This document shows, one piece after another, positions 548 through 52,279 of a DNA stretch of 60,494 nucleotides. The notes under the pieces were generated by a model. The model ran no database searches. It was not told where the DNA came from and saw only the letters and a list, made by a program, of their open reading frames with translations. How positions within the stretch are numbered: position 1 is the stretch's first letter; the number at the start of each line of letters is the position of its first letter. The translations under genes were made by a program, and so were the position numbers. The stretch is from a bacterium (GTDB taxonomy: Bacteria > Patescibacteriota > Patescibacteriia > 2-01-FULL-39-33), in NCBI GenBank assembly GCA_029558735.1, contig JAKQDP010000038.1, positions 1 through 60,494 of the forward strand, in the 5' to 3' direction.

Positions 548-584
548 GGGCAGAGGAGCAAATGCTCCCCTGCCCTCTTTTTTT
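548..584 (+). terminator. Rho-independent terminator
   Basis: GGGCAGAGGAGC-AAAT-GCTCCCCTGCCC hairpin followed by a T tract. Confidence 0.8.
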
Positions 585-621
585 ATCCAAAATTAAACAA
601 AAAAATATTAATATTTATCTA

Positions 622-650
622 TTGACAAAAAGCTTGAAATATGATAAAAT
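622..650 (+). promoter_or_regulatory. sigma70 promoter of the glycosyltransferase gene
   Basis: TTGACA-17 bp-TAAAAT, about 30 bp upstream of ATG 682. Confidence 0.7.
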
Positions 651-681
651 TTATAGTTAAATTAAAACACTTTAAGCTAAT

Positions 682-1827
682 ATGAAAGTTGCATTTATTG
701 GTCAAAAAGGTATTCCGGCCCAACAAGGCGGAATCGAAAAGCATGTGGAAGAGCTTAGCGCCAAATTGGCCCAGGCCGGTCTTAATGTAACTGTTTATTG
801 CCGGTCCCATTATACGGGCAATAACAACAAATCATTTGCGGGAATTAGAACAATCAATCTGCCTTCGCTAAAAACCAAAAACTTAGATGCTATTTCCCAT
901 ACTTTTTTGGCGACTCTTCATGCTTTATTTCAAAATTACGACATTATCCATTATCATGGCGTTGGACCGTCGCTATTGTCATGGCTACCGAGAATTTTCG
1001 CTCCCCAAACCAAAGTGATTGCCACTTTCCACTGCATAGACCGAAAGCACCAAAAATGGAGCCGTTTTGCCAAGCTGATGCTAAAAGCCGGCGAATGGGC
1101 GGCTTGCCGTTTTCCCCATCAAACCATCACTGTTTCCCAGGCATTAAAAAAATATTGCCAACAGAATTTTAATCGAGAAACGACCTACATTCCCAACGGC
1201 GTTAGTATTACTCACAACGAAAACGAGAAAATTTTAGCCAATTTTGATTTAAAACAAAATAACTACTTTTTGGCTGTCTCTCGTCTGGTTCGGCATAAAG
1301 GCCTGCACACCCTGATCAGAGCTTACCAACAAATCACTACCGATAAAAAATTGGTTATCGTCGGCGCCGGCACCAATACTGACAGTTATGTTGACTACCT
1401 GCGCCAATTAGCTAAGGACAACAACAAGATTATTTTTACCGGCCAACAATCCGGTGCGAATCTGGAAGCGCTATTTAGAAACGCCTATCTATTTGTTCAG
1501 CCGTCAGAAGCCGAGGGGCTATCTATCGCCCTTCTGGAAGCAATCGCCTATGGCACACCAACTCTAATCAGCGACATTGAAGAAAATCTAGAAATTGCTA
1601 AAGGCTTAGCCAAAGAATTCAAAAATAAAGATATTGCCGGTCTGGCCCAACAATTAAGCTGGTCAGAACAAAATCAAGAAGCCATCAAAACTCAAGCCGC
1701 TGAAGCGGAAAAAATCATTAATCAAAAATATAATTGGCAACAAATAACCAAGGCCACCATTGCTCTCTATCAGCAAGCACTAACCAGTAAAAATCCCCGC
1801 CGGCTCTTAACGGCCGCTTTCAAATAA
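682..1827 (+). CDS. Glycosyltransferase family 4 (GT-B)
   Basis: MKVAFIGQKGIP..GGIEKHV N-terminus; SRLVRHKG and PSEAEGLSIALLEA (EX7E) motifs. Confidence 0.92.
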   Translation: MKVAFIGQKGIPAQQGGIEKHVEELSAKLAQAGLNVTVYCRSHYTGNNNKSFAGIRTINLPSLKTKNLDAISHTFLATLHALFQNYDIIHYHGVGPSLLSWLPRIFAPQTKVIATFHCIDRKHQKWSRFAKLMLKAGEWAACRFPHQTITVSQALKKYCQQNFNRETTYIPNGVSITHNENEKILANFDLKQNNYFLAVSRLVRHKGLHTLIRAYQQITTDKKLVIVGAGTNTDSYVDYLRQLAKDNNKIIFTGQQSGANLEALFRNAYLFVQPSEAEGLSIALLEAIAYGTPTLISDIEENLEIAKGLAKEFKNKDIAGLAQQLSWSEQNQEAIKTQAAEAEKIINQKYNWQQITKATIALYQQALTSKNPRRLLTAAFK

Positions 1828-5320: not shown

Positions 5321-5729
5321 TCAACGGGGGCTGACTTTATTGGAAGCGGCCATTGCTATTGCCGTCTTATTAATCGGCGTCTTAACTATTGTTCAAATTT
5401 TCCCTTTATCTTTCAAACTGGGCAAAACCGCCGAACAAACAACCATGGCGATTAACCTGGCTCAAGCAAAAATCGAGGAACTGTTTTATTTGGGTTATGA
5501 TAACCTTGTTGTCGGCACCGTTGAACCTAAGCACCGACTTGCTGCTGATTCAACTAATCCGTTTTATCACTATCAGCGACAAACGGACATTGAGTATGTT
5601 GACCAAAACCTTAATTACTCGGCCGGGGAAACTGGACTAAAAAAAATCACCGTAACAGTCTACTGGTATCACCCCCTCTTAAAGAATGAGAGCAGTCAAG
5701 AAACTATAATTCTAATCAGTAAAAAATGA
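5304..5729 (+). CDS. Prepilin, PilV-like minor pilin
   Basis: G|LTLLE prepilin motif; start reassigned to ATG 5304 (MLKSNNQRG). Confidence 0.85.
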   Translation: MLKSNNQRGLTLLEAAIAIAVLLIGVLTIVQIFPLSFKLGKTAEQTTMAINLAQAKIEELFYLGYDNLVVGTVEPKHRLAADSTNPFYHYQRQTDIEYVDQNLNYSAGETGLKKITVTVYWYHPLLKNESSQETIILISKK

Positions 5730-6289: not shown

Positions 6290-7502
6290 CAATCGAGGGT
6301 TTATTTTGGTTACTTCATTATTGGTAATGGGTCTATTACTATTACTGGCGACTTATGTGGTCAGTTTTATGATAACAGAATTTAAAATATCGTTAAGCCA
6401 AACCACCGCCACCAAAACTTATTACTTAGCCGAGAGCGGCATTGCTGAAGCGATTTGGCGAATAAAATACGACCCGATTTGGAAAGCTGGTTTTGAAACA
6501 AATCCCAATTGGACTATTACTTATACCCATGATCCGGCCCTCTACCCTAATGGCGCCTACCAGATTCAAATCACCAATTTCGGCCGGGCCCGAGGAGAAA
6601 TAATTGCCACTGGCTTTATTGAAAATAACGGCCAAATAGCTCAGCGGGTCGTTAAGACTTCTATTTATAAAGCTTTGGGCGAAAGCGTAGTCGGCAATAA
6701 CGGCGAATACGCTGACGGCAATATCGACGTTTCCGGCTCAGTGATAAATGTTCATAACGGCAGTCTATTTGCCAATAATAATCTTATCGTTAATTTTTAC
6801 AGCGTGATTAATACTGATGATACGGTGAGCGCGGTGACTAACATCAACCAGCATTGGACATCTGGTATTAACGCTCCCGGCGGCATTTTTTCTCCGGAAA
6901 ACCCACCTGCTCCCGAGCCAATTCCGATGCCGGCTATCTCCTTTGACGATATCAACGATCCCAATTCTTATATTAACCAAGCCGACCAAATTTATACCCA
7001 AAATCAATTTGCCGACCTGTTATGGAACAACCAAAATCTGACTTTAAATGGCATTACCTATGTAACCGGCGACATTGACATCAAGGGCGGCCAACAGCTA
7101 ACCATTAATGGCACCTTAGTGTCGGAAGGCGACGTTGAGGTGGGAAAAAACACTATTCTGTGCTGCTGGGGCGCTCGATGCGGCTTATCAAATATAACCA
7201 TTAACCGGCCGGCCGAACCAGAAATTCCCTCGGGGTTGTTGGCTCGGGGAAAAATCGATTTCGAGTTTTGTTTGGGAAATCTTAATGCCCACGGCTTGAT
7301 TTACGGCACCGACCAAATCAGTATCCTGAGTATTCCTCAACAATTTGAAGTGCTAGGAGGATTAATTTCCAGAAAAATGACCTTGACCAGTGTTTGGCAG
7401 GGCATTAATATCACTTTTGACAATGAAGTTATTAGCTATACCATTGGCAATCCTCAATACGCGCCAGTAGTGACCGTGGAACATTGGGAAGAAGAATATT
7501 AA
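6273..7502 (+). CDS. PilX-like minor pilin with large C-terminal domain
   Basis: RG|FILVT without E5; YYLAESGIAEA PilX N-terminal motif; ends in WEE. Confidence 0.82.
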   Translation: MAATSNNRGFILVTSLLVMGLLLLLATYVVSFMITEFKISLSQTTATKTYYLAESGIAEAIWRIKYDPIWKAGFETNPNWTITYTHDPALYPNGAYQIQITNFGRARGEIIATGFIENNGQIAQRVVKTSIYKALGESVVGNNGEYADGNIDVSGSVINVHNGSLFANNNLIVNFYSVINTDDTVSAVTNINQHWTSGINAPGGIFSPENPPAPEPIPMPAISFDDINDPNSYINQADQIYTQNQFADLLWNNQNLTLNGITYVTGDIDIKGGQQLTINGTLVSEGDVEVGKNTILCCWGARCGLSNITINRPAEPEIPSGLLARGKIDFEFCLGNLNAHGLIYGTDQISILSIPQQFEVLGGLISRKMTLTSVWQGINITFDNEVISYTIGNPQYAPVVTVEHWEEEY

Positions 7503-49348: not shown

Positions 49349-50508
49349 TGGCAGGTACCCCTTTTTTAAGACAAAGTTTCTACATTTCTGTTAATAAACT
49401 TTTATATTTCATATTGCCCGGCGAAAGCATTAGGCGCCATATTAAGCGAAGTGTGAATTCGCTCTTGATTGTAGTAATAGATTTGTTGATAAATTAAGAC
49501 CATCAGTTCCCCTAGTAATTGAAGGCGACCAGGATCACCTAATTCAACCTTAAATTGAGAACAGAATGATTCTTGGTAGCCATTCTCTCAAGGGCAACCT
49601 TTACCGGCCATGGAGGGAGTAATACCAACCTGTTTGAGTAGATTTTGATAATCTCGGGAGCAATACTCTCTACCATGATCGGAGTGAATAATTTCAAGAC
49701 GACCGTAATGAGCCAAAGCCGATAGTAGGGAGGTAATAACTAGATGTCGATCATGATTTTTGGAAATAGCCAGACCAACAATACGTCTAGTGAATAGATC
49801 AATAATGGTGGCTACATACAACCAAGCTCCATCAAACCAAAGAATAGGTAAAGTCTGAAGCCCAGATGTGATTAGGGTAGCTTGGAGTATTGGTAAGTGG
49901 TAGATTAGGATGGTCTACTGCTCCCACGGCTTTGTTTGGCTGTTTTCTGCCTCTTCGGCGATAGGGTTTAAGGTTGTAGAGTTTCATTACTCGAAGAACT
50001 CTCTTTTTGTTTAACTTTTAATGTCCGGCTAATCATTTGTGACCATAGGCCGGATGTTTACGGAGAGCTTCTTCGATCATGATCTTAACCTTCTCGTCTT
50101 TTTGGGGTTGTTTAGCTTGATAGTAGAGATTGGAACGGGATAGACTCAACAGACCAACCTGATTGGTTTTATTGCCCTGATACCTCATGATTAACTGTTT
50201 TTTGGGGCTCGTTTGAGTTCCATGGTAACTTCACCGAGCATTTCCTTGAGAGTCTGATTTTCTTTCTTTAAACGAGAATATTCCAATAGGCTGGGTTGAT
50301 TACTAATACCTTTAGAAAACCAAGGGTAGATAGTGCGATTACTGATTCCGTGATCAGAAGCGGCCTGACTAATACTTACTCCTTCATTTTTAATACGATT
50401 GATAATTTGTTCTTTAACTTCTTTAGAGATTTTATTTGTCTTTTTCATATGCCCCTATTTTAACTTAATTGACATAGAATGTTTGTCTTACATTTGGGGT
50501 ACCTTGCA
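49349..50508 (-). mobile_element. IS3-family insertion sequence, degenerate (1160 bp)
   Basis: TG...CA ends with 34-bp imperfect inverted repeats (26 of 34 match; 49349-49382 and 50475-50508); orfA HTH at 50191-50448; orfB from 50188 with W..DF, IIDLFTR.IVG, HSDHG and GCP*ENG.QESF, interrupted by stops. Confidence 0.9.
50191..50448 (-). CDS. IS3 transposase OrfA (HTH)
   Basis: SKEVKEQII..GVSISQAA..HGIS..TIY.W plus leucine-zipper LKKEN..LK. Confidence 0.85.
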   Translation of the reverse strand: MKKTNKISKEVKEQIINRIKNEGVSISQAASDHGISNRTIYPWFSKGISNQPSLLEYSRLKKENQTLKEMLGEVTMELKRAPKNS

Positions 50509-50738
50509 ATAGGATTTTGGAAATCTTGAAAATCACTTATGTCAAGTTTGTTTTGTACAGAGTAACTATTTAATATTAGATAGTTTATTACCTCCAATAA
50601 AGTTGTTTTTCCATTCCCATTTTCACCAATCAAAATATTTAAACCGCTTCCTTTTTCTCCATTTGGAATCGCTAAATCTTCAAAGGTTTTATCTCCGAAA
50701 CATTTGAAATTTTTTATTTGTAAAGTTTTTATAAACAT
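50509..50738 (-). pseudogene. N-terminal fragment of an ABC/AAA ATPase (OLD/AAA_15-like), truncated by IS3
   Basis: MFIKTLQIKNFKCF..GLNILIGENGNGKTTLLE; reading frame runs into the IS end at 50508. Confidence 0.82.
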
Positions 50739-50773
50739 ATTTAAAAATTCAAAATTTCCCAACCTTTGAAAGA

Positions 50774-51036
50774 TTGATCAATAGAAGAAAATTATTAAGA
50801 GACAGAGCTCTATCATATAAAGGCGGGAAATGCGAGCTTTGTGGATACGATAAATGTCAACAGGCATTAGAATTTCATCACCTAGAATTAACCAGGAAAG
50901 ACTTCGGTATTTCGGCAAAGGGATTTGCCAGATCCTGGAAAAAATCATAAAGGAATTGGATAAATGCATATTGGTTTGCGCCAACTGCCATCGGGAAATC
51001 CACAGTAAAGCCCAAACAATAAAAAAAGAGGCCTAA
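50774..51036 (+). pseudogene. HNH endonuclease with a single frameshift
   Basis: GGKCELCGYDKC..ALEFHH..KDFGIS..RSWKK continues as IIKELDKCILVCANCHREIH after a shift at the A6 run 50939-50944. Confidence 0.85.
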
Positions 51037-51050
51037 ACCTCTTTTTTTAT
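51019..51050. terminator. Bidirectional terminator after the duplicated tRNA 3' end
   Basis: ATAAAAAAAGAGG..CCTCTTTTTTTAT. Confidence 0.75.
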
Positions 51051-51053
51051 CTA

Positions 51054-51204
51054 GCTCCGCGAACTGGATATTTATCCTTCACCGCTCCGACGGTGAAGGT
51101 CGCCTTCCAGTCAAGACGGCTTCCGCCGTCTTGCCTTCAGGCCGGCCCTCGCGGTCCGTCTCGTCAAATTACTCGCCGGACATCGCTCCGGGCTTCGAAT
51201 CCAG
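51054..51204 (-). repeat. Duplicate of the tRNA-Asn T-arm/acceptor 3' end, interrupted by a 125-nt hairpin-rich insert
   Basis: 16-bp direct repeat GCTCCGCGAACTGGAT at 51054-51069 and 51276-51291; TTCGAATCCAG at 51194-51204. Confidence 0.85.
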
Positions 51205-51239
51205 ACGCAAGCCAAGCAGTTGGCTTGCTTTCGCTTTTC

Positions 51240-51275
51240 AAATAAAAAATACGCCAAAAGGCGTATTTTTTATTT
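51240..51275 (-). terminator. tRNA terminator
   Basis: AAATAAAAAATACGCC-AAAA-GGCGTATTTTTTATTT perfect hairpin abutting the tRNA 3' end. Confidence 0.85.
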
Positions 51276-51276
51276 G

Positions 51277-51616
51277 CTCCGCGAACTGGATTCGAACCAG
51301 TAACCTACCGGTTACACTTGTCTTTAATTTTCATTAAAGTGTGGACTATATCATTACCATAACCCCTGCTTCCCGAAAAAATCGAGAATGACAGATGCCT
51401 TAGGTATCGGGCGCTTCGCCCCGATCCCGAGTACTCGGGATCGGGACTACTCCCATATGGGATAGTCTCTGCACGTTTCTCCGCCGAGGCGGAGACTTCG
51501 CTCAGGATCACCATTTTAAAGGCTTCCCTGAATTCACCCGATTTACATTCCGAGGTTTCCCCCGAAAGCTGCGTATTTGTTCACAGCCGGTTGCTCTACC
51601 ATTGAGCTATCGCGGA
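51277..51616 (-). tRNA. trnN: tRNA-Asn(GTT), intron-split (exons 51616-51583 and 51314-51277)
   Basis: Joined exons TCCGCGA TA GCTC AATGGTA GAGC A ACCGG CTGT^TAA CCGGT AGGTT ACTGG TTCGAAT CCAGT TCGCGGA G form a fully paired 72-nt cloverleaf; CCA not encoded. Confidence 0.95.
51315..51582 (-). ncRNA. Group I self-splicing intron (268 nt) within the anticodon
   Basis: 5' exon ends in U and intron ends in G; P1 GCTGT/GCAGC with U.G pair; P AATTCAGGGAA, Q ATCCTGAGC, R GCAGAGACT, S GATATAGTCC; P3 ATCGGGTG/CGCCCGAT; P9 CTTTAAT-GAAA-ATTAAAG. Confidence 0.93.
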
Positions 51617-51644
51617 ATATTGTTGAGTTGTGAAAAAGAACGTT

Positions 51645-51787
51645 GCCGGTTGCTCTTCCTGGGCAGCGCTGAATGCTCCCAGAGGTTGCATCCATCGTCG
51701 TCTCGCCTGCTCCGCCTATCGGCGGATTGGCTCACTCCTGCCCGTTGGTCGCTATCGCTACCAACCCATTGAGCTATCGCGGAATAT
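51645..51787 (-). repeat. Duplicate of the tRNA-Asn 5' half, interrupted in the D-loop by a 109-nt structured insert
   Basis: CCATTGAGCTATCGCGGAATAT at 51599-51620 and 51766-51787; GCCGGTTGCTCT at 51586-51597 and 51645-51656. Confidence 0.88.
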
Positions 51788-51825
51788 ATTTTTTACAAGG
51801 ACCTAAAAATAATAACACCCTAAAC

Positions 51826-51854
51826 ATTTTAGCAAATTTTAGAGACAAAGTCAA
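51826..51854 (-). promoter_or_regulatory. Promoter of the tRNA locus
   Basis: Minus strand TTGACT-17 bp-TAAAAT with an extended -10 TG. Confidence 0.7.
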
Positions 51855-51863
51855 CAAGTGTCC

Positions 51864-51891
51864 GTAACTCGCAACTCGTAACTCGCAACTC
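51864..51891 (+). repeat. Heptamer tandem array (GYAACTC)x4
   Basis: GTAACTC GCAACTC GTAACTC GCAACTC. Confidence 0.9.
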
Positions 51892-51904
51892 GAAAAAACA
51901 AAAA

Positions 51905-52279
51905 TTATTCCATTATATCTGCCGTTGCCCTGATGAGTCCGTTCAATATTTGCATCACCTGTTTAGCTCTTTGGCCCATGTTTTTATAATCATCAAAAGT
52001 AATAAATCCCAGATCTCTGGATAAAATCAAAAAATTCTGCACCTCGGCGGCCGACCCTCTCGATTGATAATAAAACTTTATTTTATCCTTGAAATGATAA
52101 CGCTCGAAACCCTCCGCGATATTGGCCGTAATTGAACTCGCCGCTCTTCTTAATTGACTTACCAGACCAAAAATCTCGGTTTGGAGAAATTGCTCCGTAA
52201 TTTTATAAACATCCAAAACCAACTGATGGGCGACCTACCAAGCATCCAATTCATAAAAATTTTGAATCTTGCCGTCCAT
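51905..52279 (-). pseudogene. Four-helix-bundle protein (23S rRNA IVP / TIGR02436-like) with in-frame TAG at codon 15
   Basis: MDGKIQNFYELDAW*VAHQLVLDVYKIT..E.FGLVSQLRRAASSITANIAEG..SRGS..E; TAG at 52237-52235. Confidence 0.85.

What the first reader, a model, noticed from the sequence alone, without database searches (positions are those of the whole stretch)
51019..51854. tRNA-Asn nested between insert-interrupted duplicates of its own 5' and 3' ends
Seen on the minus strand, in order: promoter; a copy of the tRNA 5' half with a 109-nt insert in the D-loop; a short spacer; the real tRNA with its group I intron; a terminator; a copy of the T-arm/acceptor 3' end with a 125-nt insert in the T-loop; a second terminator. 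Both outer copies retain tRNA sequence on both sides of their insert, which a simple integrase att duplication would not produce. Both inserts are GC-rich hairpin clusters in AT-rich surroundings. Inference: a family of small non-coding elements that target tRNA D- and T-loops and regenerate an intact gene by duplication, or decoy/regulatory half-tRNAs that affect maturation and splicing. The outer copies cannot form a complete tRNA, because the anticodon 3' strand and variable loop are missing.
Basis: partly seen in the sequence, partly recalled or inferred. Interest (0 to 1): 0.9.

Follow-up and report, generated by a model that had tools for sequence, protein, structure and literature searches.

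The report
Small structured inserts that target tRNA genes
A tRNA-Asn gene of a tiny Patescibacteria genome is flanked by broken copies of its own ends, each split by a small folded GC-rich insert, and these inserts belong to large, apparently undescribed families that sit beside many different tRNA genes in related genomes and look like mobile elements that spare the gene by duplicating part of it.

Summary
The left part of the downstream "T-arm copy" is the reverse complement of the T-loop plus 3' T-stem, not a direct copy.

The 110-nt insert contains an ~87-nt three-way-junction module, here called E1.
- E1 has 9 copies in this genome. All lie 42-286 nt from a tRNA gene, on the tRNA's strand.
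- E1 occurs in 28 of 33 genomes of the same family, but only sporadically elsewhere.
- 24 of 26 base pairs covary.

The 124-nt insert belongs to a second family, E2, with the same layout. It was found in 12 of 34 family genomes.

Both modules sit inside partial copies of the neighbouring tRNA. 5' copies are interrupted in the D-loop or variable region, 3' copies in the T-loop. Exact direct repeats of local DNA up to 80 nt flank them.

A filled/empty pair within one genus shows that about 50 nt of the target was duplicated, from the T-loop to past the terminator. Congeners differ in occupancy. E1 also occurs in REP-like hairpins and inside a reverse-transcriptase gene.

Best reading: these are protein-less mobile modules that target hairpin or tRNA loops and survive because the target is duplicated. 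The enzyme is unknown. No Rfam match and no published description was found.

The parts
51826..51854 (-). Sigma-70-type promoter TTGACT-17-TAAAAT that must drive the whole unit (E1 leader plus tRNA-Asn)
   Evidence: 10 of 12 consensus positions, TG extension. The same promoter sits directly before the tRNA in the congener G001, which lacks the insert (L060).
51766..51787 (-). Direct repeat copy 1: 'atat' + tRNA-Asn positions 1-18 (the interrupted 5' copy)
   Evidence: D2 (22 nt, 100%).
51745..51765 (-). H5 adaptor hairpin (GUUGGU...ACCAAC) directly 5' of the E1 core
   Evidence: Hairpins of the type GUC...GAC are seen in this position in the H5-form copies listed (28 copies classed H5).
51658..51744 (-). 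E1 core: ~87-nt three-way-junction module. P1 is GGGCAG/CUGCCC; P1a-P2 has tandem G.A pairs; P3 is the third arm.
   Evidence: Model R1 scores 83.7 bits. 24 of 26 pairs covary in 45 distinct copies.
51645..51657 (-). AA + GAGCAACCGGC (tRNA positions 22-32): the rest of the interrupted 5' copy
   Evidence: D3.
51621..51644 (-). 24-nt AT-rich spacer between the interrupted copy and the real gene
51276..51620 (-). Direct repeat copy 2 ('atat', 51620-51617) followed by the real tRNA-Asn(GUU): exon 1 51616-51583, group I intron 51582-51315, exon 2 51314-51276
51239..51275 (-). Terminator-like hairpin with U-run after the real tRNA
   Evidence: I2. The consensus terminator scan did not list it.
51207..51228 (-). 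H0 hairpin, the conserved 5' part of E2 units
   Evidence: conserved in most of the 10 aligned E2 units; covariation.
51194..51204 (-). Anti-T segment ('guide') CTGGATTCGAA: reverse complement of the tRNA's T-loop plus 3' T-stem
   Evidence: I5. It co-varies with T-loop variants at other tRNAs.
51070..51193 (-). E2 core (124 nt, GC 0.63): second family of structured module
   Evidence: 42 predicted pairs, 21 with compensatory change.
51054..51069 (-). Displaced copy of the tRNA 3' end (ATCCAGTTCGCGGAGC, from the T-loop to the 3' end)
51019..51053 (-). Second terminator hairpin
   Evidence: I3 (13-nt arms, 100% complementary) and D1 (74% identical to the first terminator region).

Best explanation
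The locus is the only tRNA-Asn(GUU) gene of this genome, and it carries a group I intron. It has been hit on both sides by small protein-less structured insertion modules of two families.

The two forms:
- E1 in 'H5 form' lies in the D-loop of a 5' copy placed between the promoter and the real gene.
- E2 lies in a T-arm-like hairpin of a 3' copy placed behind the terminator.

Shown:
- The modules are multi-copy, structure-conserved and strand-specific.
- They are almost always embedded in a partial copy of the adjacent tRNA.
- They are bounded by direct repeats of local DNA. For 5' copies the repeat runs from the hit loop out to the leader; for 3' copies it runs to past the terminator.
- They are present or absent at orthologous sites in close relatives.
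- They occur in tandem arrays, and occasionally in non-tRNA hairpins and in a coding gene.

Inferred:
- They are, or recently were, mobile non-autonomous elements that insert into hairpin or tRNA loops.
- Because each tRNA gene is single-copy and essential, only insertions accompanied by duplication of the target segment survive. This leaves one intact gene beside an interrupted partial copy.
- The direct repeats then allow precise loss and tandem expansion by homologous recombination.
- In the T-loop form, an 8-14 nt segment complementary to the cognate T-loop/T-stem lies directly 5' of the core. I read it as a target-pairing segment or as a footprint of a fold-back step in insertion.
- The folded strand is the tRNA-sense strand, as RNA or as single-stranded DNA.
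- The enzyme acts in trans and is unidentified.

In this window E1 must be transcribed as part of the pre-tRNA leader.
For: Family and tRNA linkage:
- R1 finds 9 copies in the genome, all on the tRNA's strand and 42-286 nt from a tRNA.
- 28 of 33 genomes of the same family have copies, against 3 of 27 other families of the class and 2 of 150 other genomes in a phylum sample. Of the four copies in those two genomes, three lie 56-71 nt behind a tRNA and one has no tRNA in its locus.
- In the fetched loci, 39 of 46 copies have a tRNA in the locus. All 39 are on the same strand, and 35 of them lie 19-73 nt away.

Structure:
- 94.3% of cells are paired, against 24-38% when partners are slid.
- 24 of 26 pairs show compensatory change.
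- G.U 38 against A.C 12.
- E2 shows 21 of 42 pairs with compensatory change.

Mobility and duplication:
- Exact flanking repeats of 80, 75, 67, 59, 43, 42 and 35 nt that include non-tRNA flank.
- Filled/empty pair G015/G024. The terminator between the tRNA and E1 is a copy of the local terminator, and the flank resumes after the 3' copy.
- Congener G001 has the intron but no upstream unit. Upstream E1 is present at 6 of 25 syntenic tRNA-Asn loci.
- Tandem arrays occur.
- Copies with near-identical cores and similar flanking hairpins lie in REP-like hairpins in G001 (L092-L094; two cores are identical and the third differs by one base).
- An in-frame insertion sits in a reverse-transcriptase gene.

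Anti-T segment:
- Its reverse complement matches the cognate tRNA over 8-14 nt in 20 of 22 T-form units. The mean match to non-cognate tRNAs is 4-8 nt.
- It follows T-loop variants: TTCAACT, TGCGAAT, TTCGAGT.
Against: - No enzyme was identified. In this genome IS110 and TnpB were not found.
- In the 34 family genomes, Y1 transposase occurs in 9, reverse transcriptase in 24 and large serine recombinase in 30. None tracks E1 presence.
- Staggered cuts 22-80 nt apart are not a known transposase property.
- The anti-T segment is not explained by simple target duplication.
- In three loci (L008, L037, and Ser-gct in this genome) the second repeat ends with a solo anti-T segment and no module follows.
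- Six syntenic Asn-upstream copies keep the fold, with 7 compensatory pairs. This could mean selection in place, that is, a function for the host.
- No reads or RNA data could be examined.
Confidence: 0.55

Rival explanations
1. E1 and E2 are host-functional cis-acting RNA domains of pre-tRNA leaders and trailers. Possible roles are processing, stability or folding control, or half-tRNA decoys. On this view the partial tRNA copies are part of the functional RNA. Mobility would be secondary or absent. This reading can coexist with a mobile origin.
For: - Strong covariation, including among six copies at the syntenic rpoD-tRNA-Asn site.
- Always on the tRNA's strand.
- G.U in excess over A.C.
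- In the window E1 lies between the only promoter and the tRNA.
- Of the nine E2 units displayed, the seven with a tRNA gene upstream in the fetched locus start 22-29 nt (five units) or about 68-107 nt (two units) after it. No terminator-like hairpin with a T-run is apparent in the short spacers.
- The anti-T segment could pair with the nascent T-arm.
Against: - Patchy presence at orthologous sites, even within genera.
- Copy number ranges from 0 to 23 per genome.
- A terminator usually separates the tRNA from T-form E1 units.
- Exact repeats of non-coding flank.
- Copies in REP-like hairpins and, in antisense, inside a coding gene.
- 5 of 33 family genomes have none.
Confidence: 0.2
2. The units are miniature or decayed derivatives of site-specific recombinase islands that integrate into tRNA genes and bring their own replacement tRNA end (Campbell integration and accretion). 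The recombinase could be a large serine recombinase or a tyrosine integrase. E1 and E2 would be conserved arm sequences next to the att site.
For: - A metagenome relative (L115, RpoD 97% identical) has a 1.7-kb insert with a large serine recombinase gene directly behind an intronless tRNA-Asn. An anti-T segment, E1 and 3' copies follow it.
- Serine recombinase genes lie within about 0.6 kb of the 3' end of a tRNA gene, in convergent orientation, in about 18 of 27 loci.
- Arrays resemble accretion.
Against: - The sequence duplicated with E1 is local, not foreign (exact repeats).
- E1 is not enriched at recombinase-occupied tRNAs: 4 of 19, against 8 of 48 tRNAs in this genome.
- L115 reads as three successive layers, with a degenerate 3' copy between the recombinase element and the E1 unit.
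- 5' copies interrupted in the D-loop and non-tRNA insertions do not fit this model.
- The module sits between the two half-sites of the presumed att site.
Confidence: 0.15
3. The outer pieces are parts of a split, permuted or multi-intron tRNA gene, and the inserts are removed from the RNA.
For: The inserts lie at D-loop and T-loop positions, where archaeal non-canonical introns occur (recalled knowledge, no call).
Against: - The outer copies lack positions 33-53, so no full tRNA can be joined.
- An intact gene lies between them.
- The same is true at other loci.
Confidence: 0.03
4. Assembly artefact or chance repeats.
For: - Repeats break assemblies. Many copies lie at contig ends.
- No reads could be laid on the region.
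Against: The same architecture appears in dozens of independent genome and metagenome assemblies.
Confidence: 0.02

Closest known systems
Genomic islands and prophages that integrate into tRNA genes by site-specific recombination (sublocations anticodon loop, T-loop, 3' end; tandem accretion). The classification is recalled; no call.
   Same: They hit tRNA genes and leave an intact gene plus a displaced partial tRNA copy. They pile up in arrays at one tRNA. A serine-recombinase element occupies the same tRNA-Asn in L115.
   Different: - The units are 110-220 nt and have no recombinase gene.
- The duplicated DNA is local and includes leader or terminator.
- 5' copies are interrupted in the D-loop.
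- The core has a covarying fold.
- An anti-T segment is present.
MITEs, REPINs and palindrome-associated elements (non-autonomous bacterial repeats)
   Same: They are small, protein-less, multi-copy and GC-rich folded elements with patchy distribution. Some E1 copies sit in REP-like hairpins.
   Different: - There are no terminal inverted repeats with a short fixed target duplication; flanking repeats here are 22-80 nt.
- Strong tRNA-loop preference and a single orientation.
- Y1 transposase does not co-occur.
Non-canonical introns, split and permuted tRNA genes of Archaea and red algae (recalled; no call)
   Same: Foreign sequence at D-loop and T-loop positions of tRNA sequences. tRNA pieces are separated in the genome.
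   Different: The interrupted copies here are incomplete and lie beside an intact gene. The organism is bacterial. Splicing signals (bulge-helix-bulge) were not tested.
[quoted passage not shown]
   Same: Structured RNA inserted in loops of tRNA-like genes. The real tRNA-Asn here carries such an intron. The preprint mentions 'ghost exons' near real ones.
   Different: E1 (~87 nt) and E2 (~124 nt) are too small and give no Rfam group I match. They sit in partial copies, not in the working gene.
Guide-carrying RNAs of mobile elements (IS110 bridge RNA, omega RNA of IscB/TnpB; recalled; no call)
   Same: A short target-complementary segment lies directly beside a conserved folded scaffold.
   Different: No IS110 or TnpB homologue was found in this genome. 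No adjacent protein gene. Pairing with the target is untested.

Membership tests
Group I intron (Rfam RF00028) | Covariance-model score above the gathering threshold over the full model | tested here: met
   95.7 bits against 50, model positions 1-253 of 253, at 51592-51322 on the minus strand.
Group I intron (Rfam RF00028) | U.G wobble at the 5' splice site in P1 and a terminal G | tested here: met
   The P1 alignment puts the U.G at CUGU|G. The intron ends ...AAGUG.
tRNA-Asn(GUU) | The spliced sequence gives a 73-nt cloverleaf with anticodon GUU | tested here: met
   The exons match intronless tRNA-Asn of relatives over positions 1-38 and 35-73 at 95-97%. This is the only candidate Asn gene among the 48 tRNAs ARAGORN finds. 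ARAGORN's own call is Thr(tgt), from a splice site shifted by 2 nt.
Integrase-type tRNA island (att duplication) | A recombinase gene inside the inserted segment | tested here: not met
   No ORF with a recombinase domain lies between the repeats in the window. The inserts are 110 and 124 nt.
Integrase-type tRNA island (att duplication) | The replacement tRNA end and its flank are brought in by the element (foreign flank) | tested here: not met
   In the G015/G024 pair the duplicated terminator is the local one. Exact repeats include local flank.
MITE | Terminal inverted repeats and a short target duplication of fixed length | tested here: not met
   Flanking repeats are 12-80 nt and variable. 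The only inverted repeat is the anti-T segment against the T-loop copy.
IS200/IS605-derived palindromic elements | Co-occurrence with a Y1 (HUH) transposase | tested here: not met
   Y1_Tnp occurs in 9 of 34 family genomes; E1 occurs in 29 of 34.
IS110 bridge-RNA or TnpB omega-RNA systems | The cognate recombinase or nuclease gene is present | tested here: not met
   PF01548 and PF07282 gave no match in this genome, which is 99% complete.
Any Rfam 15 family (for the two inserts) | A match at or near the gathering score | tested here: not met
   In E-value mode over 50900-52000, only the group I intron passes. Other rows are 10-26 bits against thresholds of 29-144.
Archaeal-type tRNA intron or split tRNA | The exons together give a complete tRNA | tested here: not met
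   The outer copies hold positions 1-18, 22-32 and about 59-76 only.
Archaeal-type tRNA intron or split tRNA | Bulge-helix-bulge motif at the junctions | not tested
   No tool run.

The most novel reading that the evidence does not exclude
E1 and E2 are nucleic-acid-guided self-targeting elements. A short segment complementary to the universally conserved T-loop region, fused to a conserved folded core, selects tRNA loops as RNA or as single-stranded DNA. Insertion then proceeds through a fold-back or hairpin-capped intermediate that copies the target. That would be a protein-less or host-enzyme-driven way of invading essential genes without killing them, possibly with ribozyme chemistry in the three-way-junction core.
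Probability: 0.15. Interest if true: 0.9.

Novelty: new variant of a known kind. Interest (0 to 1): 0.75.

Why it matters
If these are mobile, they show how selfish DNA can colonise single-copy essential tRNA genes in minimal genomes: the hit part of the gene is duplicated instead of a replacement being carried in.

They also add two abundant structured motifs to a phylum whose non-coding RNA is almost unexplored.

They explain practical problems:
- tRNA finders miss or miscall these genes.
- They may account for the 'ghost exons' reported near real tRNA exons.
- They can break assemblies at tRNA loci.

The target-complementary segment next to a conserved scaffold raises a testable question: is this a new guided insertion mechanism, or a new kind of tRNA-linked regulatory RNA?

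Tried and rejected
Leads that went nowhere:
- **The 23S_rRNA_IVP (Avd-like) gene at 51905-52222.** It is one of only 3 copies in the genome, and the other two are not near E1. The link was dropped.
- **Y1 transposase, IS110, TnpB, reverse transcriptase and tyrosine recombinases as mobilising enzymes.** They are absent or show no co-occurrence. The small tyrosine recombinase on the 1.49-kb contig C33 showed no tRNA or E1 link.
- **Large serine recombinase.** It is attractive because of L115, but it is not enriched at E1 sites, and L115 is layered.
- **Viral contigs.** One scan with a degenerate E1 pattern gave a single match inside a GC-rich coding region. It is not an E1 element.
- **A tree of 46 E1 cores.** It was too noisy to separate vertical descent from movement.
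- **My reading of the H5 hairpin as a T-loop mimic.** The minimal forms are plain GUCC-GAA-GGAC hairpins, so I dropped it.
- **L131.** I first took it for a close relative. It reads the same as the G010 locus (L046) over the stretch compared by eye, so it was not counted.
- **Simple models.** Short-stagger target duplication, Campbell integration of a foreign circle, and unequal crossing-over each fail to explain the anti-T segment and the solo anti-T segments after the second repeat.

Literature: seven searches found no description. Only listings and abstracts were seen, except for the Williams preprint, of which part 1 of the text plus a term search were read. Supplements were not opened.

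Not done: read mapping, RNA evidence, bulge-helix-bulge test, protein phylogenetic profiling, 3D modelling.
Full report
**1. What is in the window**

Read on the minus strand (coordinates verified), the order is as follows.
- A strong sigma-70-type promoter at 51854-51826.
- 'atat' plus tRNA positions 1-18 at 51787-51766.
- A 110-nt GC-rich insert at 51765-51656.
- tRNA positions 22-32 at 51655-51645.
- A 24-nt spacer.
- The same 22 nt again (D2), which here open the real gene at 51616-51276.
- The real gene holds a 268-nt group I intron (RF00028, 95.7 bits). The U.G wobble in P1 places the splice after CUGU, which gives anticodon GUU.
- A terminator hairpin.
- A conserved hairpin at 51228-51207.
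- CTGGATTCGAA at 51204-51194.
- A 124-nt GC-rich insert at 51193-51070.
- ATCCAGTTCGCGGAGC at 51069-51054.
- A second terminator.

No other tRNA-Asn is among the 48 tRNAs of the genome. ARAGORN calls this one Thr(tgt), and in default mode it finds nothing in the window.

CTGGATTCGAA is the exact reverse complement of the tRNA's TTCGAATCCAG (I5), not a direct copy of the 5' T-stem.

Context:
- Upstream lie dnaG, rpoD and a 23S_rRNA_IVP-family gene.
- Downstream lie a frameshifted HNH-like ORF pair, an AAA_15 fragment and IS3 fragments.
- Named relatives of RpoD are Patescibacteria, Parcubacteria and Candidatus Buchananbacteria.

**2. The D-loop insert is one member of a large family (E1)**

BLAST against the genome gave an 81%-identical 90-nt copy beside tRNA-Asp. 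Sensitive BLAST gave more copies, all near tRNAs.

Six copies aligned into a three-way junction, with 15 of 26 pairs showing compensatory change. The covariance model R1 gave these results.
- It finds 9 copies in this genome. All are on the strand of a tRNA gene 42-286 nt away. The tRNAs are Asn, Asp, Leu-caa, Gln-ctg, Gln-ttg (two copies), Gly-gcc, Leu-gag and Ser-gct.
- tRNA genes with 300-nt margins cover roughly 3% of the genome (my arithmetic), so this linkage is far from chance.
- Across relatives, 28 of 33 genomes of the same family carry 2-23 copies. 3 of 27 other families of the class have copies, as do 2 of 150 other genomes sampled across the phylum. Of the four copies in those two genomes, three lie 56-71 nt behind a tRNA and one has no tRNA in its locus.
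- In 34 fetched sources there are 46 copies. 39 have a tRNA in the locus, always on the same strand, and 35 of them lie within 19-73 nt. The 7 without a tRNA are mostly at contig ends.

On the 45 distinct sequences, 94.3% of cells pair, against 24-38% when partners are slid, and 24 of 26 pairs show compensatory change. This alignment was fitted to the model, which favours the structure. G.U outnumbers A.C 38 to 12, so the folded strand is the tRNA-sense strand. Rfam has no match for either insert.

**3. Two architectures of E1**

Among 63 distinct copies, 28 are 'T form', 28 are 'H5 form' and 7 are unclear.

T form:
- The order is tRNA, usually a terminator, then a segment that is the reverse complement of that tRNA's T-loop plus 3' T-stem. 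The E1 core follows, often a GUC...GAC hairpin, then a copy of the tRNA from T-loop positions 56-60 to its 3' end. More flank often follows.
- The anti-T segment matches its own tRNA over 8-14 nt in 20 of 22 units. Matches to non-cognate tRNAs average 4-8 nt.
- It follows unusual T-loops: TTCAACT gives AGTTGAA, TGCGAAT gives ATTCGCA, TTCGAGT gives ACTCGAA.

H5 form:
- The order is leader copy, tRNA 5' part up to the D-loop GG (or up to the variable loop), a GUC...GAC hairpin, and the E1 core. After AA come the D-stem 3' strand and the anticodon-stem 5' strand, then a spacer and the intact tRNA.
- The left junction always follows RGG.

The window's upstream unit is an H5 form.

**4. The T-loop insert is a second family (E2)**

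E2 relatives occur in 12 of 34 family genomes.
- They lie behind tRNA-Asn (this genome, G001, G013), Ser-gga, Ser-tga, Ser-cga, Pro-ggg and Leu-tag.
- Where a tRNA lies upstream in the fetched locus, the unit starts 22-29 nt after it in five of seven cases, and no terminator-like hairpin is apparent in those spacers.
- The order is a conserved hairpin, an anti-T segment, the core, and then the 3' copy.
- The anti-T loop part is exact in 8 of 10 units. The two exceptions are the same Ser-tga site in two genomes.
- RNAalifold predicts 42 pairs, 21 of them with compensatory change. One predicted helix lies between the anti-T segment and the sequence just before the 3' copy.

Other partial tRNA copies in this genome carry only mini-hairpins of the type TCCGCC...GGCGGA, or no insert at all (Arg-tcg, Ile-gat).

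**5. Evidence that units are gained and lost**

- Exact repeats that include non-tRNA DNA flank E1: 80, 75, 67, 59, 43, 42 and 35 nt. 40 of 52 copies have a repeat of at least 12 nt.
- The rpoD-tRNA-Asn site is syntenic in all 24 loci where RpoD was found.
  - E1 lies upstream of the tRNA in 6 of 25 such loci (this genome, G010, G011, G013, G015, G027).
  - Other inserts with a partial 5' copy lie there in 2 loci (G008, G016).
  - The remaining 17 have nothing upstream, including congener G001, where the conserved promoter leads straight into the tRNA.
- The group I intron is present in 8 of these 25 loci, independently of E1.
- A clean pair exists within one genus.
  - G024 has tRNA-Gly(tcc), a terminator and flank.
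  - G015 has the tRNA and a near-identical copy of that same terminator. Then come 'acagatggc', the anti-T segment, E1, a hairpin, the 3' copy, the (decayed) terminator and the same flank.
  - So about 50 nt of target, from T-loop position 59 to past the terminator, was duplicated. The element proper, including the anti-T segment, is about 165 nt.
- Tandem arrays exist: three units behind Gln-ttg in this genome, and a 158-nt period in L026.
- G001 holds three copies with near-identical cores and similar flanking hairpins inside REP-like hairpins, not at tRNAs. Two cores are identical and one differs by one base.
- In G008 an E1 with such hairpins lies in frame, on the opposite strand, inside a DGR-like reverse-transcriptase gene next to an Avd-like gene.

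**6. The search for the enzyme**

- IS110 and TnpB were not found in this genome.
- In the 34 family genomes, Y1 transposase occurs in 9 and reverse transcriptase in 24. Neither tracks E1.
- A metagenome relative with 97%-identical RpoD (L115) has an intronless tRNA-Asn with no upstream unit.
  - Directly behind the tRNA is a 1.7-kb insert encoding a large serine recombinase (Resolvase + Recombinase + Zn_ribbon_recom). Its reading frame runs on through the antisense tRNA.
  - After it come a degenerate 3' copy with a terminator, then anti-T + E1, then 3' copies and the native terminator.
  - This is accretion of at least two elements at one tRNA.
- Such recombinases occur in 30 of 34 genomes, at 7 places in this one. 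They lie convergent with, and within about 0.6 kb of, a tRNA gene in about 18 of 27 loci.
- E1 is found at only 4 of 19 such tRNAs. That is about the base rate of 8 of 48 tRNAs in this genome. The recombinase is therefore a candidate helper, not a demonstrated one.

**7. Interpretation**

Shown: two families of structure-conserved, strand-specific, protein-less modules that sit in loops of partial tRNA copies beside the intact gene. They are bounded by duplicated local DNA, vary between close relatives, and sometimes land elsewhere.

Inferred: they are non-autonomous mobile elements that insert into hairpin or tRNA loops. Because these tRNA genes are single-copy and essential, only events that duplicate the hit segment are seen. 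The repeats then allow precise loss and array growth.

Unexplained:
- How repeats of 22-80 nt arise.
- How the anti-T segment arises. It is templated by, or selected to match, the cognate T-loop, even where no partner remains in the 3' copy (L019).
- Why a solo anti-T segment ends the second repeat in three loci.

One model fits the junctions but was not tested: a fold-back or hairpin-capped intermediate at a break in the T-loop, with the module as the loop.

A host function is not excluded. The six syntenic Asn-upstream copies keep the fold, with 7 compensatory pairs. In this window E1 is necessarily part of the pre-tRNA leader.

**8. Novelty**

No Rfam family and none of seven literature searches describes these elements. 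[quoted passage not shown] This may be the same phenomenon, unrecognised.

I file the finding as a new variant of tRNA-gene-targeting mobile DNA. A guided or ribozyme mechanism remains a bolder possibility.

Tools that could not be used: the search of earlier findings (closed) and the look-up of sequencing runs and read laying.

Noticed in passing
window 51315-51582 (-); loci L040-L068: The group I intron in tRNA-Asn is present in 8 of 25 syntenic family loci, with lengths from about 234 to 577 nt. It is absent from the 97%-RpoD relative L115. Its presence is independent of the E1 unit.
   Followed up: partly
window 51905-52222 (-): A 23S_rRNA_IVP / four-helix-bundle (Avd-like) gene lies between rpoD and the tRNA. 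In L115 a PD-(D/E)XK (PF13366) gene takes the same slot. This small-gene slot behind rpoD appears to be variable.
   Followed up: partly
window 51863-51890: An exact 14-nt tandem repeat (CGTAACTCGCAACT, two copies) lies just upstream of the promoter (D4). By eye, short tandem repeats of different sequence lie at the same place in G001, G007 and G017.
   Followed up: no
window 49588-51036: Mobile-element debris lies behind the tRNA complex. It comprises two overlapping ORFs of a frameshifted HNH-like gene (50774-51036, weak Pfam match), an AAA_15 ATPase N-terminal fragment (50460-50762) and IS3-type transposase pieces (HTH_Tnp_1, rve).
   Followed up: partly
L230 (G008:C7) 560-1750 (-), insert at about 1003-1120: A DGR-like reverse-transcriptase gene, next to an Avd-like gene, carries an E1 module with REP-like hairpins on the opposite strand. 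The 396-aa frame stays open.
   Followed up: partly
L115 5280-6845 (-); loci L195-L217: Reading frames of large serine recombinases run on through the antisense of the adjacent tRNA. In L115 inverted repeats of about 40 nt (5570-5608 and 6878-6917) bracket the gene. GGTTCGA-like words recur 135-205 nt behind several of these tRNAs.
   Followed up: partly
G000 C68 (Pro-ggg upstream), C13 (Ser-gct upstream), C25 (behind Arg-ccg): A third kind of insert in partial tRNA copies: mini-hairpins of about 15 nt of the type TCCGCC-NNN-GGCGGA, alone or in pairs. They are also seen before tRNA-Asp and in G016.
   Followed up: no
L045, L048, L054, L057 (downstream of tRNA-Asn): A conserved motif, '...cggtcgttttggttctagaccga...', follows a hairpin behind tRNA-Asn in several genomes. 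It also precedes the E1 unit in L038.
   Followed up: no
G000 C7 13874-14983 (-): ARAGORN in intron mode reports a tRNA-Ser(cga) with a 1015-nt intervening sequence. A second, uninterrupted tRNA-Ser(cga) lies on C55.
   Followed up: no
G000 C33 (whole contig, 1490 bp): A very short contig that encodes only a 197-aa tyrosine recombinase, with GC-rich hairpins at its 5' end.
   Followed up: partly
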